In this document: positions 20,648 through 29,200 of the stretch, piece after piece | How positions within the stretch are numbered: position 1 is the stretch's first letter | How the letters are laid out: every line of letters starts with the position of its first letter | NCBI GenBank assembly: GCA_965153285.1 | Contig: OZ229121.1 | Direction: 5' to 3' (one strand) | Length of the DNA stretch: 64,000 nt | Source: Podarcis tiliguerta | Taxonomy: Eukaryota | Made by a program: the position numbers

Positions 20648-23600
20648 ACAACAGATATGCTTTTTGATGGTAGTGGTGGGGTGGGAGTGTTGATGCTAGG
20701 TACATGAAACAAGTTGGGCCCGTCTTTGAATCCCAATCTTTTTATTTACTTTCTGAAAGCCTATAAACTTGCTCTTTAAGTAACAGTGGCACCAGGATCT
20801 ACCAGCCCATGTCAGCCAAACTGATATACCAATGTATAGCTTATGCATCTGGTTACTTGTCCTAGGATGATATTACCATATTAAAAGCAAAATGGGCACG
20901 TCATAGGACATGTGGTGAAATGGGTGTTTTTTTATTAACAAAACCATTCAATACTATTCAACATAACTCAGGTGGTCAGAAAGGCCCAACAGAGACTTAG
21001 TTGGTCAGAAAGGCCCAACAGAGACTCCATTTCCTTAGGGTCTTGCGAAAGAATAATGTTAAACAACAGCTGATCAACTCCTTTTACTGGTCCACAATAG
21101 AAAGTGTCCTTTCATATTGTATCACAGTGTAGTATGCTGGCCTGACAACCGTGGACAGAAAGTCTCTACAGAGGGTGGTGAATACAACACATGATATCAT
21201 GGGCTGTCCCTTGAGTCCGCTAGATGACATCGCAAGGGATCGTTGCCTTAGGAGAACAAGAAAAATTATCAGGGATGACTCACACCCCGGCCATCACCTC
21301 TTTAATCTTCTACCCTCGGGCAGGAGATATAGATGTATAAACAGCCATACCAACTGGCTAAAAAATAGCTTCTATCCGTGGGCTGTTTGGCTGTTGAACA
21401 GAAAATAACATAGTGAAATTGACTTGCGAAGTGGTGTGTTGTTCGATAAGAGATTGAGTATTTGAGGGGGGGGGAGCTCAATTAATTTTATTGTACACTG
21501 GTTGTACAATGACAATAAAGGTATTATTATTATTACTATGTGAAGCAGGATTGTGTACATGTGCACATACTTTAGAGCTGTAGACACTACTTAACATGTA
21601 AAGAGGGTTTTAAATCTTTATGACAGGACAGAAGGCCATAATTTGGACAATTTTTTGTATGAGTGCACATTCATCATTGGAATTCTACCAAACGAGAAAG
21701 TTTGCAGTAACTTAAATCTGCCTTTTTTTGAAAATCAAGGTGACTAAACCAGAATTTAAAGGAGTTGGCTGCTGTAATGTCAGAGATTGTAAATACTGCT
21801 CCCAAGAAGCAGTCATGAATCAGATCTTTTTTTAAAAAAAATATGGCACTCAATTTCATGAGAACTGCCCAAGGGCACATTAGTAAATCACAAACCCTCA
21901 TTAGAAAGTAGTGTTTATCTTAAGGAAAAATGCAGTTCCACAGATTTCTTTTGACAAATTTTGCAAGCTTGATGAATACTGTTGTTTGCTTTGTTGTTTA
22001 TAAATAGTCTGAAGTAAAGTTATTTCTAGCACCATCCTATCAACATTTACTCAGAAGCAAGTCCTACTGAGTTCAATTAATCTTATTTTCTAGTAAATAT
22101 GTTTAGGACTGCAGCTTTAACACACACTTTGTTTGGTTTTTTGTGCTGCTGAAAGCAGCCAATAAGCAACACAAGAATACTTTTAAAGAACAATTCTAAA
22201 CATCAATTTTTTTAAGAAGCAAAGCACAATTATCCAAAAATTAAAATAATTTCTTTGGCTTTTAGTACAATGTAAGTAATCTATTTTTGTATCAGTCAGA
22301 ATTTATTTATTAAATGCCAATGTACAGCCTATTAAAGGACAGGTTCATATGATGATTTCTGTGAATGGTTCAGTGCTGCCAAATTCTGGCTCTTTGATTT
22401 ATCAACTAAATCATTGACCCATGACTCAAACACCTGTTGATTAATTCAAAGGCTCATTTAAAATCTAAGATCATATGCATTTCAAAGGAGAGCTGGCTGA
22501 AAAGTTGAAGTGCTGTAAAACAGAGGCCATCCACCAGCTATAACGTGACTTTCCTTGTATTTAATTTTTTTATAATTAGTTAACAAAAAAGTTGCTTAAG
22601 TTGAGCCCTAGTTTTTGAATCTTGCCTTTATGCCTTGCTCAGTAAACAGAACTTTTCACAGATAATCTGTGTCTTACCCTGCACTAATGTCTATTGAAAG
22701 AACGAGTACAATGGTGATAGGTTTCTATGGCAACGGACATCCTGTTATACAGGTTTAACAGATTCCGAATCATACACAAAATGTGATATTATGAGTAAAG
22801 AGCTCATTACTCCTACTGGTGGCATGCAAATTGAGAATATTCACAATGATGAAAGCGTCGTCTATAAAATACGCCAGAGTTGAACCAACCATGAAAACCC
22901 TCATTTTGCAATTTTCTCATCAATAAATGCTCGAGACACTGCTGCTGTCCATTACAGAACAAATGAATGATAATGATGGTCTTAGGATATAACCTTTAAT
23001 GTAGTTTAACTTGAAGCACAGGTTGAAAAGAAAGAGGTTAGATTATACATTGCAGAAGATTCTGAAATTCCTCTCCCCCTTATTTTCCCCTAACCTTTGC
23101 ACAAGATACTCATTTTTTATTTTATTCTTCATTTCTGCTCTCTGTCTGTCTGTTTCGCTTTGTGGCTGCTTTCCTTTCTCTCAGAGAGGTATGAATTAAT
23201 TTTGTTTTCTATTTGCTTGCACCTTCCTTTTCTCTATTGCTGAAAAAGAAGGATAATTTATCCATAACTACCTGAAAATTTGACATGGATTCAAGAGATC
23301 ACTAAATGAGTTGCTCTACGATTCTGGCATTTTTTGGGTGAAGAATGCAAATACTGCAAACACTGACAGAACGAAGAGAAAGGATTTGCTATGCCTTAAA
23401 CATTTAAAGCCTTATACAGCAGATGAATCATTACTTACTCTCTGCTTTGCTAAGCTCCAAAGCCAACTGCTCTCTAGCTTTAACCTCTCCATCAAGTCGC
23501 TCTTGCAATTCCTCCTGGCATCTGAGCAATTCAGTGGCTTCTTGTTCCTGTTTAAAGGACTCTCGGATCAATTCTGTCTGTGTAACTTTAGCATGTTCAA

Positions 23601-26203: not shown

Positions 26204-29200
26204 TACAGCAAGATTTAAATTCCTTCAGGTTCTTTCATACTTACTGAATAAGGAGGTGTAGGCAAAGAAATTTTTGAAACAACTCTTACTCTATGCTCAT
26301 TTTTCCTGCGCCTAAAATGAAAAATTGAAGTATTGACAACTACAGAGTTATTTTCATCCAACTCTTCGGTGAAAGGAAAAGGATATGGTAAAGGCACACG
26401 AGATTCAACTTCATATGTATCTTCTTCCTCGCTTTTTTCTGACTTCAAGCCACTGAATAGATTTGATGCCCAATATGTACGGTAGGAATCCATTCGAGAA
26501 TAACGTTGCTGCCTTCGCTCATCAGATAGGGCTATTTGCCTTAGCTATGAAAGGTTTCAATATACTGACAAAAAATTGCAGAGAAGTTCACCAGTTGTCT
26601 GACTGCTGCAGAGAGCCAGGAACTATCAGTTCACATCCGGATAAGTAACCCGCAAGTAAGGAGAAGCCCAAGTAAATATCAACTTGAGAAGAAAAGAAAG
26701 TGTCAACATTTGCAGACTTCACTGAACTACGACTTTCCCCCTCAGAACCAAACTCGAAAAGGTATTTTAAACAAAAAGAATTAGTAATGTGAGGCAGGCA
26801 TTCATTGAGGGAACAAGGTATCTTCATTATTAGGCCATGTAACGACAAGCAACAGGCAGTTAATCAATCCATTACAGGAGAAAAAAAAATTGCAGCAGTT
26901 GTCAATTGAAAAAACAAAACAAAACACCTGCTACAGTGAGGTCAAAAATACAAAAAGTGGCACACTATTTGGCTTTGATTACTTTCTTGAAAGAATTCTC
27001 CTGAAGTTAGATAAAACTTCACCGTGCAAAGTGAAAGCCTCTCTCTCTCTCAATGCCTCTGTTGAGGAAGAGGTCAGGACAATGGGAGTGGCTTAATTTC
27101 TTTACTGCAGGTACACAAGCCGATGGAATTTGAATTAGCACACCCACAGTAAACCTTGCCCGACAAGATTCAAAATCCAAGTCAGAGCAGAGAAGCTGTA
27201 TTCGTAAGGGAATAAAACAATAGCTTCAAGACTAAAAGACTATTTTCAATGCTTTGTAAAAAAGAACATTTCTAAAATACAGTTGCATCTCCAGATCTTT
27301 AATGTTGACAGCCTTAAAAACACTCCTAGCAAGGTTTCTCTTTCTATTAGGATCAATGTGCAAGTCCATGAATTAGATGATAGGCCAAATTCATACTGTT
27401 TCTAGATTTTTTTGGCACAAAGATCACCTTATCATCACAACATAGTTCCTTTGGAAGTTTAAGGGAGATGAGGGAAGACAGAAAGGAGAATAAGATTTTG
27501 ATTACATCCTTTGAAGAAACAAGTTGTAAAATGATGCACTTATTGTCCATTAGAAAATAAATATTTCATTTAACTTGCTGGGCATTTTCTACTTGTTCTC
27601 TTGCAAGAGAGTCTTGAAAAACTAAGTTGACAAAATTAAACTTGATAGACAGATATGAAATAGAATTGTTGTTGTTGTTTAGTCGTTTCCGACTCTTCGT
27701 GACCCCATGGACCTGAGCATGCCAGGCACTCCTGTCTTCCACTGCGTCCCGCAGTTTGATCAAACTCATGTTGGTAGCTTCAAGAACACTGTCCAACCAT
27801 CTCGTCCTCTGTCATCCCCTTCTCCTTGTGCCCTCAATCTTTCCCAGCATCAGGGTCTTTTCCAGGGAGTCTTCTCTTCTCAGGAGGTGGCCAAAGTATT
27901 GGAGCCTCAGCTTCACGGTCTGTCCTTCCAGTGAGCACTCAGGGCTGATTTCCTTAAGAATGGATACGTTTGATCTTCTTGCATGGGACTCTCAAGAGTC
28001 TCCTCCAGCACCATAATTCAAAAGCATCAATTTTTCGGCGATCAGCCTTCTTTATGGTCCAGCTCTCACTTACATACATCATTACTGGGAAAACCATAGC
28101 TTTAACTATACGGACCTTTGTTGGCAAGGTGATGTCTCTGCTTTTTAAGATGCTGTCTAGGTTTGTCATTGAAATAGAATAGTACATTTCAAATTCAAAG
28201 ATGTATCTGATCCATTCACCTGTTTCTAAGAGGGATGGAAGAGCTCTCATTTGAGCACTGAGATTCGTTTCAAATGCATTTAACAGACTGAGGCTATAAT
28301 ACTATGATGCAGGTTCCAAGTTCAAATGTGGCACCATTTTGAGGCATGCAAGAAATGTGATTTCTTCGTTGAGCACTAAAACTATGCATGCTACAATCTA
28401 TTGCTTTTTCCAAAAGTCGTTCTAGGTTTCAGGTTCAAAACTGACCTTTTTGATAGGGACTATTTTTGAAAGGGAAATATTCAGCACTGAAAAACTGGAT
28501 TCAAACTTGGTGTGCACATTCATGGCACCATTCTAAAAGTTCCAAGTATTTGAGGAAGAGGGAGAAGAGATGGGTAAACACCTAGGTGCAATGACTCAAA
28601 ATATTGAAGAAAAATGTTGAGATGGAAAGATAAAAGGCTTCCAATAGGATAAGCAGGTTGAAACAATTGCAATGAAACAACGTTCATTGGAACGTTCCGG
28701 ATGCAAGACCTATTCAATCCTACGATTCACTAGTTTTTAAAATGAAGTATTTTCTTTCTAGGAAAGCCAACACTGAAAAAACTGGATTGCAAATGAAATC
28801 CTATTGCAAGTTACACTGGCATACACATATCTTTCTGGAAATAATAAGAATTGTATAAACACTAGTTGAAACTGGGAACAACTGCACATTCCACACTTTG
28901 AGGGCACCGATGGTATAGGTCTGAAGGAATCCAATTTACTTCCTCACGCGGAGGTACTAGGCAATGTTTGTGTGCAGCTTCCCTGTACCCAAAGAATTGG
29001 CCCTTCAATTAATGGATACACACACCAGCCTATAAGAATTTAAATCCACAGAACGAGAAATATCTGCTCTCCCAAGGAAGGAATGATCAAAGTCATGGCA
29101 ACCAAAGAAACAACTTTCAAATAATTTGATTTAGCTTATCACAACTTTGAACCGTTTACGTCACTGTCTTAAATACATTTAAACATTTAAATGAAAGAAA

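What the first reader, a model, noticed from the sequence alone, without database searches (positions are those of the whole stretch)
22678..26682. Mid-gene 'stop-and-restart' module that could split AKAP9 into separately expressed N- and C-terminal halves
Seen, in transcription order (high to low coordinates) after the phase-0 donor at 30074: (i) two phase-0 acceptors leading to stop codons (26682, 26544); (ii) a (UG)17 tract and an ATTAAA at 24291-24296 (minus); (iii) an enhancer/promoter-like motif cluster ending in a donor at 23805; and, one exon later, (iv) an RFX X-box next to a strong donor at 22678. Known: the AKAP9 N-terminal region binds the cis-Golgi (GM130) and carries a PKA site, the centrosome/basal-body-targeting PACT domain is C-terminal, and truncated isoforms such as yotiao exist. 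Inference: one locus may independently output a PACT-less N-half with a private tail and a PACT-bearing C-half from internal promoters, switching Golgi versus centriole/cilium scaffolding by cell type.
Basis: partly seen in the sequence, partly recalled or inferred. Interest (0 to 1): 0.75.

Follow-up and report, generated by a model that had tools for sequence, protein, structure and literature searches.

The report
Conserved internal start exon of AKAP9
The supposed mid-gene "stop" exon is really the conserved alternative first coding exon of a shorter AKAP9 protein that keeps the centrosome-targeting end, a form already annotated in many vertebrates; the other listed signals are mostly at chance level.

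Summary
The gene on the minus strand is a squamate-like AKAP9. The frame opened at "acceptor" 26544 contains an ATG at 26493, then 83 codons, then a GTAAGT donor after 26245.

That 83-residue peptide is the N-terminus of annotated AKAP9 short isoforms. Of 47 named hits from teleosts to mammals, five of them squamates, 44 start with it. They then continue into the exon that begins at 23598. 45 of the 47 carry the PACT domain.

So the "restart" idea, an internally started PACT-bearing C-terminal half, is right in substance.

The "stop" half has no support. I found no N-terminal-half protein ending here. The nearest poly(A) hexamer lies 1.9 kb past the stop codon.

The two donors, the ATTAAA, the (UG)17 tract and the X-box-like site are at chance level. 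Only the CRE/ETS/E-box cluster near 23.88 kb is unusual, and that test was post hoc.

The isoform is already known from annotation. I found no paper describing it.

The parts
30074..30300 (-). Canonical AKAP9 exon (227 nt) ending ...LLETINETTNQ, with the phase-0 donor CAG|GTAGCA. It is the last exon before the intron that holds the finding.
   Evidence: Sequence; donor score. Gekko kuhli P0075 and turkey P0077 show this exon joined directly to the LEHA... exon.
26245..26493 (-). Coding part of the alternative first exon of the short, C-terminal-half AKAP9 isoform. It runs from the ATG at 26493 for 83 codons (MDSYRTYWASNLF...ISLPTPPYS) and ends in phase 0.
   Evidence: Translation and coordinates. 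An in-frame TAG lies at 26547-26545. Homology. 44 of 47 named AKAP9 hits start with this peptide.
26239..26244 (-). 5' splice site GTAAGT of the alternative first exon (TCA|GTAAGT).
   Evidence: score 0.76; 262 of 3545 minus-strand GTs score at least as well. Its use is inferred from the ...PPYS|LEHAK... junction in orthologous proteins and in the spliced contig protein P0001.
26494..26900 (-). Presumed 5'UTR and core promoter of the short isoform. This is inferred; no TSS is shown.
   Evidence: CpG is locally retained: 7-8 CpG per 300 bp and o/e 0.63-0.70 at 26200-26649, against a window mean of 0.255. There is no transcript evidence for this species.
26167..26200 (-). (UG)17 microsatellite, 44 nt downstream of the alternative exon's donor. 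It is intronic in both the long and the short transcript.
   Evidence: It is one of six (AC)n/(GT)n tracts of 8 or more units in the window. It explains the sub-threshold SCARNA7 match (32.2 bits against a gathering score of 65).
23439..23598 (-). First exon shared by the long and short isoforms (LEHAKVTQTELIRESF...LSKAE). The acceptor is ...tcacacag|CTT in phase 0 and the donor is AGA|GTAAGT.
   Evidence: tblastn of the gecko short isoform P0038 maps residues 84-138 here.
23803..23950 (-). CRE-like TGACGTAA, two ETS cores and a CATGTG E-box, followed by CAG|GTATTT. It is a candidate intronic regulatory element. It lies 2.3 kb downstream of the alternative first exon and about 200-350 nt upstream of the shared exon.
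   Evidence: only such cluster in 64 kb; 3 of 100 simulations; post hoc. CpG o/e is 0.63-0.65. The donor is at chance level. Function is untested.
22676..22735 (-). X-box-like GTTGCCATAGAAAC plus AGG|GTAAGA, inside the next intron (23438-18964). No support as a promoter or exon.
   Evidence: no exact X-box; relaxed matches 2 against 0.8 expected. (37 minus-strand and 27 plus-strand GTs score at least as well). The ATG-initiated frames I read upstream stop before the donor (read).
18751..18963 (-). Next shared exon (..LIDGYADEKSLLEEQIQEK...AGPAEQ).

Best explanation
The 6.5-kb intron between the exon ending at 30074 and the exon starting at 23598 holds the lizard orthologue of a deeply conserved alternative first coding exon of AKAP9.

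Inferred: transcription starts at an internal promoter somewhere upstream of 26493. Shown: translation can start at the ATG at 26493, which is the first in-frame ATG after the in-frame stop TAG at 26547-26545. Shown: 83 private codons follow, and a GTAAGT donor lies after 26245 in phase 0. Inferred from orthologues: this donor splices to the phase-0 acceptor at 23598. From there the mRNA uses the ordinary downstream exons.

The product, in orthologues, is a protein of about 2,000-2,140 residues. It lacks the whole N-terminal half of AKAP9 and keeps the C-terminal PACT centrosome-targeting domain.

In the long isoform the 30074 donor skips this exon and joins 23598 directly. The (UG)17 tract, the ATTAAA and the 23805 and 22678 donors are intronic sequence with no demonstrated role.
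For: 1. Sequence. ATG at 26493, 83 codons, TCA|GTAAGT, 249 nt so phase 0 to phase 0. In-frame TAG at 26547-26545.

2. First homology search. The 109-codon frame hits 9 proteins of 192-2000 residues. I fetched the 5 named ones. Four start at this Met and continue ...PPYS (PPYT in Lates): turkey, Antechinus (1980 aa) and Daubentonia 'isoform 4' (2000 aa) go on into LEHAK(V/I)TQTEL, while the Lates model runs into unrelated residues. In the Tachysurus model the exon is internal.

3. Second homology search. Residues 1-83 of P0004, searched among proteins of 1089-3465 residues, gave 47 hits, all named AKAP9 or AKAP9-like. They comprise 21 mammals, 7 birds, 2 turtles, 5 squamates (Heteronotia, Crotalus, Pantherophis, Erythrolamprus, Candoia), 1 frog and 11 teleosts. 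44 of 47 start with MDS.... In 38 of the 40 that matched my end-of-exon pattern, the next residues are LEH.... 45 of 47 list PACT (PF10495). In P0038, PACT lies at residues 1901-1982.

4. Exhaustive search of 1.84 billion representatives. It gave 22 hits. Of the 6 that are 2000 aa or longer, 5 match at their N-terminus (residues 1-84, 1-84, 1-83, 1-71 and 9-72). One matches internally (P0051).

5. Conservation. It begins exactly at the Met. M1, D2 and S3 are invariant, and 22 of 83 columns are invariant across 29 sequences from teleosts to mammals. The residues upstream of the Met differ completely between models.

6. Gene map. tblastn of the gecko short isoform onto the window gives the colinear series 26493-26242, 23724-23437, 18961-18740... 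408-220.

7. Transcript-type evidence. P0001, an unnamed 243-aa ORF on a 2185-nt contig, reads exon 1'-exon 2-exon 3 without introns, so it is transcript-like.

8. The long form skips the exon. Gekko P0075 and turkey P0077 read ...INETTNQ (Gekko; turkey ...INETSNQ)|LEHA....
Against: - There is no transcript, CAGE or chromatin data for this species. The TSS and the promoter are inferred only.
- The window's own short isoform is not among the database hits; the best squamate identity in the exon is 78%.
- The start context is intermediate: C at -3 and G at +4.
- Upstream ATGs at 26709, 26636 and 26522 would burden a long 5'UTR.
- The exon side of the donor is weak.
- Four models place the exon internally: P0009, P0036, P0051 and P0052. 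In this window 30074 -> 26544...26245 -> 23598 would also stay in frame, so some cassette use cannot be excluded.
- The 83-residue peptide has no recognised fold or family. Its function is unknown.
Confidence: 0.85

Rival explanations
1. Acceptors at 26682 and 26544 capture the 30074 donor and terminate an N-terminal-half protein with a private tail, polyadenylated with help from (UG)17 and ATTAAA. Separate internal promoters at about 23.85 and 22.75 kb, with donors at 23805 and 22678, restart a C-terminal half.
For: All the motifs are present. The 26682 AG has an exceptional pyrimidine tract (6 of 4537). The 23.88-kb motif cluster is unique in the window. CpG is locally retained at 22.65-23.0 and 23.65-24.1 kb.
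Against: The 26544 frame is the N-terminus of annotated proteins, not a C-terminal tail. No N-terminal-half protein ends here: 0 of 9 hits and 0 of 7, both limited to 2000 aa or fewer. The first poly(A) hexamer after the stop is 1.9 kb away, and such hexamers occur 1.69 times per kb anyway. Donors 23805 and 22678 are at chance level on both strands. There is no exact X-box. A first exon ending at 23805 or 22678 would be non-coding with upstream ATGs, and in this species the shared exon 23598-23439 has no in-frame Met.
Confidence: 0.05
2. The 26544-26245 unit is also, or instead, an in-frame 300-nt cassette exon of the long isoform, inserting 100 residues between ...NETTNQ and LEHAKV....
For: 30074 is phase 0. 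26544-26245 is 300 nt without a stop, and 23598 is phase 0. Four gene models carry the exon internally: Tachysurus P0009, Urocitellus P0036, Electrophorus P0051 and Cyprinus P0052.
Against: In those models the peptide linking the upstream exon to the Met has different length and sequence. Three follow the upstream exon with 17, 45 and 16 residues; the fourth (P0052) has unrelated upstream sequence. P0051 also reads through the donor. This is what model artefacts look like. 44 of 47 models start at the Met. The 26544 acceptor is weak. Seventeen open codons are expected by chance about 44% of the time (my arithmetic: (61/64)^17). Proteins longer than 3465 aa were never searched at 90% clustering, so full-length forms carrying the cassette could have been missed.
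Confidence: 0.1
3. The CRE/ETS/E-box cluster at 23.80-23.95 kb is a real regulatory element. It could be an intronic enhancer for the short-isoform promoter or a weak second TSS.
For: It is the only TGACGT + 2 ETS + E-box cluster in 64 kb, and arose in 3 of 100 Markov simulations. CpG o/e is 0.63-0.65 against a window mean of 0.255. It is not a repeat within 21.5-31 kb.
Against: The test is post hoc, because the motifs were chosen after seeing the site, and CpG-containing motifs raise CpG counts by construction. 88 of 1274 300-bp windows have 7 or more CpG. No cross-species DNA could be compared. Donor 23805 is ordinary.
Confidence: 0.25

Closest known systems
Annotated AKAP9 short isoforms. 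Examples: Heteronotia binoei isoform X2 (P0038, 2098 aa), Crotalus tigris X10 (P0041, 2083 aa), Mauremys reevesii X8 (P0021, 2142 aa), Daubentonia madagascariensis 'isoform 4' (P0007, 2000 aa).
   Same: Same private 83-residue N-terminus (72-78% identical to squamates, 84% to turtle, up to 87% to birds). Same junction into the LEHAK... exon. Colinear downstream exons.
   Different: The window's own protein is not in the database hits. Its use in this species is inferred. The PACT-coding exons lie outside the window.
Yotiao, the N-terminal truncated AKAP9 isoform (named in PMC3514031 and PMC6861388, passages read).
   Same: One gene giving products with different targeting.
   Different: Nothing in this intron matches a terminal exon. 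No protein ends here, and there is no nearby poly(A) hexamer. From recall only, yotiao ends a couple of hundred residues further upstream in the protein, so outside the finding's coordinates. I did not test that.
Internal-promoter short isoforms of other giant scaffolds: nesprin-1alpha and AKAP6beta (PMC11853192, passage read: they 'arise from alternative internal promoters'). Pericentrin S is recalled only, from no call.
   Same: A large coiled-coil scaffold gene with an internal promoter, giving a C-terminal product that keeps the anchoring end.
   Different: Different genes. For AKAP9 I found no paper describing the short form.

Membership tests
AKAP9 short-isoform alternative first exon | ATG-initiated frame homologous to the MDSYRTYW...ISLPTPPYS N-terminus | tested here: met
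   E-values 1e-36 to 1e-15. 22 of 83 columns are invariant across 29 sequences.
AKAP9 short-isoform alternative first exon | Phase-0 5' splice site right after ...PPYS, compatible with the phase-0 acceptor of the LEHAK... exon | tested here: met
   (TCA|GTAAGT after 26245; 249 nt). (acceptor at 23598). Actual splicing in this species was not testable.
AKAP9 short-isoform alternative first exon | Position in the intron between the ...NETTNQ exon and the LEHAK... exon, skipped by the long isoform | tested here: met
   (P0075 and P0077 join the two flanking exons directly).
AKAP9 short-isoform alternative first exon | Own transcription start site and promoter upstream of the ATG | not testable with these tools
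   Only indirect signs: an in-frame stop upstream, no conservation upstream of the Met, and local CpG retention.
AKAP9 short-isoform alternative first exon | Product retains the PACT domain | not testable with these tools
   The PACT exons lie beyond the window's low end. In orthologues, 45 of 47 hits list PF10495. In P0038 it is at residues 1901-1982.
Alternative terminal exon giving a yotiao-like N-terminal half | Annotated proteins that contain the upstream exon and end in a private tail encoded in this intron | tested here: not met
   7 hits, all 169-255 aa fragments; two join directly to LEHA...; none of 9 hits is an N-terminal-half protein. Both searches were limited to 2000 aa or fewer.
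Alternative terminal exon giving a yotiao-like N-terminal half | Poly(A) signal shortly downstream of the stop codon | tested here: not met
   there is no AATAAA or ATTAAA between 26217 and 24297. The first is ATTAAA at 24296.
RFX X-box | Match to GTNRCC(N0-3)RGYAAC (consensus recalled) | tested here: not met
   no exact match in the window. The site at 22721 fits only RGNAAC (2 found, 0.8 expected).
Rfam RNA families (SCARNA7, mir-4433, mir-4716 and others) | Score at or above the family's gathering threshold | tested here: not met
   7 matches with E of 1 or less in 18000-31000, all below gathering (for example SCARNA7 32.2 against 65).

The most novel reading that the evidence does not exclude
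The 83-residue private N-terminus is a functional module that nobody has studied. It is invariant at 22 positions from teleosts to mammals and has no Pfam family, no solved relative and no paper that I could find. It may give the PACT-bearing short AKAP9 its own partner or localisation, for example centrosome or basal body without Golgi tethering. The CRE/ETS/E-box cluster 2.3 kb downstream may be its cell-type-specific enhancer. If so, knockouts and disease variants that touch only the N-terminal half of AKAP9 would leave a conserved half-size scaffold untouched.
Probability: 0.3. Interest if true: 0.55.

Novelty: already known. Interest (0 to 1): 0.3.

Why it matters
For the scan, this shows that an open frame reached from a chance AG inside an intron can be an alternative first exon rather than a poison or terminal exon. 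The start codon and the GTAAGT donor were the clues.

For biology, the short AKAP9 form is annotated in at least 44 vertebrate species' models. It keeps PACT.

I found no paper that describes it. A 2019 review table of 16 human Ensembl transcripts lists no form of about 2,100 residues (PMC6861388, section 5 read).

Alleles or variants confined to upstream exons would not affect this product. That matters for interpreting AKAP9 knockouts and patient variants.

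Tried and rejected
- Rfam scan of 18000-31000 at E of 1 or less: 7 matches, all below gathering. The SCARNA7 match is the GU repeat.
- Repeat search of 21500-31000: no direct or inverted repeats of 25 nt or more. The motif blocks are therefore not local repeats.
- Pfam on the three exons separately: no family.
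- ESM Atlas search with the 83-residue peptide: no usable hit.
- PDB sequence search with the peptide: 0 matches at E of 1 or less.
- AlphaFold2 on the 29-row alignment: mean pLDDT 64.7, pTM 0.39, a helix and three long strands predicted. Foldseek against PDB gave 0 matches at E of 0.001 or less and a best probability of 0.38. I make no fold assignment.
- Pfam on the three ORFs at 27569-28301 that look to me like the C-terminal end of an RTE/BovB-type LINE, and on the GC-rich ORF at 38382-38906: no family. The LINE label rests on recall only.
- Literature: eight full-text searches and passages from seven papers gave no description of this isoform. PMC12575860 reports an alternative AKAP9 promoter ('pr10005') in human tumours, but the passages I read do not say where it lies.
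- Script errors and one time-out were rerun with corrections.

Full report
**What the window is.** The 64-kb window has no N. It carries a large coiled-coil gene on the minus strand. One stop-free frame runs for 865 codons at 56554-53960. tblastn of the gecko AKAP9 short isoform P0038 gives 15 colinear minus-strand matches from 26493 down to 220. Overall identity is highest to squamate AKAP9: Candoia 69.9%, Heteronotia 69.3%, turtle 65.1%, sparrow 65.0%, marsupial 59.1%. I therefore treat the window as a squamate AKAP9 locus, not as human sequence.

**The canonical exons around the finding.**
- Exon 30300-30074 ends ...LLETINETTNQ with CAG|GTAGCA in phase 0.
- The next canonical exon is 23598-23439, reading LEHAKVTQTELIRESF...LSKAE, with donor AGA|GTAAGT.
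- The exon after that is 18963-18751.
- A Gekko kuhli model (P0075) and a turkey model (P0077) join these directly, reading ...INETTNQ (Gekko; turkey ...INETSNQ)|LEHA....

**Checking the observation.** Each listed motif is present at its stated coordinate.
- The AG before 26682 follows a 16/17 pyrimidine tract. Only 6 of 4537 minus-strand AGs have a tract that rich, but it is an AAG. Phase-0 reading from it gives 18 codons and then TGA.
- The AG before 26544 is ordinary; 767 of 4537 AGs are as good.
- (UG)17 is at 26200-26167.
- ATTAAA is at 24296-24291.
- CAG|GTATTT follows 23805 and AGG|GTAAGA follows 22678.

Most of these features are what chance gives.
- With a donor weight matrix whose frequencies I recalled, 249 of 3545 minus-strand GTs score at least as well as 23805, and 37 of 3545 at least as well as 22678.
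- On the plus strand, where I looked for no gene, 208 and 27 of 3084 GTs do so.
- The minus strand has 108 AATAAA/ATTAAA hexamers, 1.69 per kb.
- There are six (AC)n/(GT)n tracts of 8 or more units in the window.
- There is no exact X-box in the window. The 22721 site fits only a relaxed pattern: 2 found, 0.8 expected.

The one feature that stands out is the TGACGTAA + two ETS + CATGTG cluster near 23.88 kb. It is the only such cluster in the window, and it arose in 3 of 100 Markov-1 simulations. I chose the motif set after seeing the site, so this is weak evidence.

CpG is locally retained at 26200-26649, 23650-24099 and 22600-23049. Observed/expected is 0.53-0.70 there against a window mean of 0.255. 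However, 88 of 1274 300-bp windows reach 7 or more CpG.

The frame entered at 26544 does not just run into a stop. It is open for 109 codons. Codon 18 is an ATG at 26493. An in-frame TAG lies just upstream at 26547-26545. After codon 100 comes TCA|GTAAGT, with 26245 the last exon base. From ATG to donor is 249 nt, or 83 codons, ending in phase 0. That matches the phase-0 acceptor at 23598. The TAA at 26217-26215 is reached only if the donor is ignored.

**Homology of the 83-codon unit.** I searched exon by exon. I did not build or search the joined spliced model.

- *Search with the 109-codon frame, proteins of 192-2000 aa.* It gave 9 hits. I fetched the five named ones.
  - Four begin at this Met and run to ...PPYS (PPYT in Lates). 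Turkey (236 aa), Antechinus isoform X3 (1980 aa) and Daubentonia 'isoform 4' (2000 aa) then continue into LEHAK(V/I)TQTEL. The Lates fragment runs into unrelated residues.
  - In the fifth, the Tachysurus model, the exon is internal.
- *Search with residues 1-83 of the Antechinus protein, proteins of 1089-3465 aa.* It gave 47 hits, all named AKAP9, AKAP9-like or PACT-domain proteins.
  - They comprise 21 mammals, 7 birds, 2 turtles, 5 squamates, 1 frog and 11 teleosts.
  - 44 of 47 start MDS....
  - In 38 of the 40 that matched my end-of-exon pattern, the next residues are LEH.... Seven did not match the pattern, and I did not examine them further.
  - 45 of 47 carry PACT (PF10495) in the precomputed domains. 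In P0038, PACT is at residues 1901-1982.
- *Exhaustive HMMER scan of 1.84 billion representatives.* It found 22 proteins. Of the six that are 2000 aa or longer, five match at their N-terminus. One, the Electrophorus model P0051, matches internally.
- *Alignment of the window's exon with 28 named orthologues.* Identity is 56-87%. 22 of the 83 columns are invariant, including M1, D2 and S3.

Upstream of the Met, the models that extend further share nothing with one another or with the window. That is what a 5'UTR looks like.

An unnamed 243-aa ORF on a 2185-nt contig (P0001) reads private exon-shared exon-next exon without introns. It is a transcript-like record of this splice in some sauropsid-like organism.

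**Best explanation.** The unit 26493-26245 is the orthologue of the alternative first coding exon of a short AKAP9 isoform.
- *Shown:* the ORF, the start codon after an in-frame stop, the donor, the phase compatibility, the position in the gene, and the homology.
- *Inferred:* that an internal promoter upstream of 26493 fires in this species, that the donor is joined to 23598, and that the product keeps PACT. The PACT exons lie outside the window.

A TATA-like TTTAAAAT is at 26771. Upstream ATGs at 26709, 26636 and 26522 argue for a short 5'UTR or leaky scanning. The start context is intermediate, with C at -3 and G at +4.

**The 'stop' half.** I found no support for it.
- None of the 9 hits and none of the 7 hits is an N-terminal-half protein ending in this intron. 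The hits are 169-255 aa, from the upstream exon searched among proteins of 133-2000 aa.
- Both searches carry the tool's warning that finding none is weak evidence.
- By my arithmetic from orthologue lengths, an N-terminal half plus tail would be close to the 2000-aa limit.
- No poly(A) hexamer lies between the stop and 24297.
- From recall only, yotiao ends further upstream in the protein than this intron. I did not test that.

**The proposed promoters at 23.85 and 22.75 kb.**
- A first exon ending at 23805 contains ATGGTCATGTGA, a two-codon upstream ORF, and no frame open to the donor.
- The ATG-initiated frames I read upstream of 22678 stop before the donor (read).
- The shared exon 23598-23439 has no in-frame Met in this species.
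- Both sites would therefore need a non-coding first exon and a start further downstream. With chance-level donors this is unsupported.
- The 23.88-kb cluster may still be an intronic enhancer; I put that at 0.25.

**Cassette use.** 30074 -> 26544...26245 -> 23598 would stay in frame, as a 300-nt insert. Four gene models place the exon internally: P0009, P0036, P0051 and P0052. In three of them the stretch between the upstream exon and the Met is 17, 45 or 16 residues, with no shared sequence. P0052 has unrelated sequence upstream of the Met. P0051 also reads through the donor. I read these as model artefacts, but I could not search full-length proteins above 3465 aa.

**The 83-residue peptide.** I could not assign it a family or a fold.
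- Pfam gave no family, the ESM Atlas no usable hit, and the PDB sequence search no relative.
- The AlphaFold2 model is of low to moderate confidence: pLDDT 64.7, with a helix at 3-10 and strands at 23-34, 50-64 and 67-76.
- Foldseek against PDB found nothing at E of 0.001 or less.

**Literature.** Eight full-text searches found no paper describing this isoform.
- A review's table of 16 human Ensembl transcripts lists proteins of 3907, 3910, 3126, 1637, 1769 aa and shorter ones, none near 2,100 aa (PMC6861388, section 5 read).
- PMC12575860 reports differential use of an AKAP9 alternative promoter in tumours. The passages I read do not give its position.
- PMC11853192 states that nesprin-1alpha and AKAP6beta arise from internal promoters (passage). 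That is the closest analogy by mechanism.

**What stayed unchecked.**
- DNA-level conservation of the promoter, the (UG)17 tract and the two motif blocks.
- Any expression data for this species.
- The joined spliced model.
- Several unnamed database hits that I left unfetched. One has the same scores as the primate hit.

**Verdict.**
The motifs exist and are mostly at chance level, and the key exon was misread.
The N-terminal half with a private tail is unsupported here.
- The feature is already known from genome annotation across vertebrates, though I found it undescribed in the literature I could search.
- Interest: 0.3.

Noticed in passing
window 25240-25335 (minus strand): A long, near-perfect hairpin built on a C-run and a G-run. 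MFE is -54 kcal/mol, z = -7.3 against 200 shuffles, and 0 shuffles fold as well. It accounts for the sub-threshold Rfam matches to mir-4433 and mir-4716. It may be an inverted-repeat element; its function is unknown.
   Followed up: partly
window 27569-28301 (minus strand): Three adjacent ORFs in shifted frames (for example ...SILKSRDITLPTKVRIVKAMVFPV......LRLQYFGHLLRREDSLEKT...). To me they look like the decayed C-terminal end of an RTE/BovB-type LINE, about 1 kb upstream of the alternative first exon. The label is recalled; Pfam found no family.
   Followed up: partly
window 38382-38906 (minus strand): A GC-rich stretch with a 175-codon open frame of low-complexity G/R/P/S-rich sequence and 7 or more CpG per 300 bp at 38301-38950. 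It has no Pfam family. It may be a repeat or a CpG-rich element inside an AKAP9 intron.
   Followed up: partly
window 1601-2400: The highest CpG observed/expected in the window: up to 0.93 in 500-bp windows at only 0.39-0.40 GC. It overlaps and flanks the exon at 2383-2180. I did not examine it further.
   Followed up: no
window 26493-26245 versus orthologues (alignment A1): The private exon of this squamate-like window is more similar to birds (up to 87%) and turtles (82-84%) than to the gecko (78%) or the snakes (72-76%). This suggests faster change of this exon in those squamate lineages.
   Followed up: no
window 20604-20641 and 43642-44070: A (CT)19 tract at 20604-20641. A compound (GT)n/(AC)n/(CT)n region around 43.6-44.0 kb gives long spurious ORFs rich in RE and CV dipeptides.
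   Followed up: no
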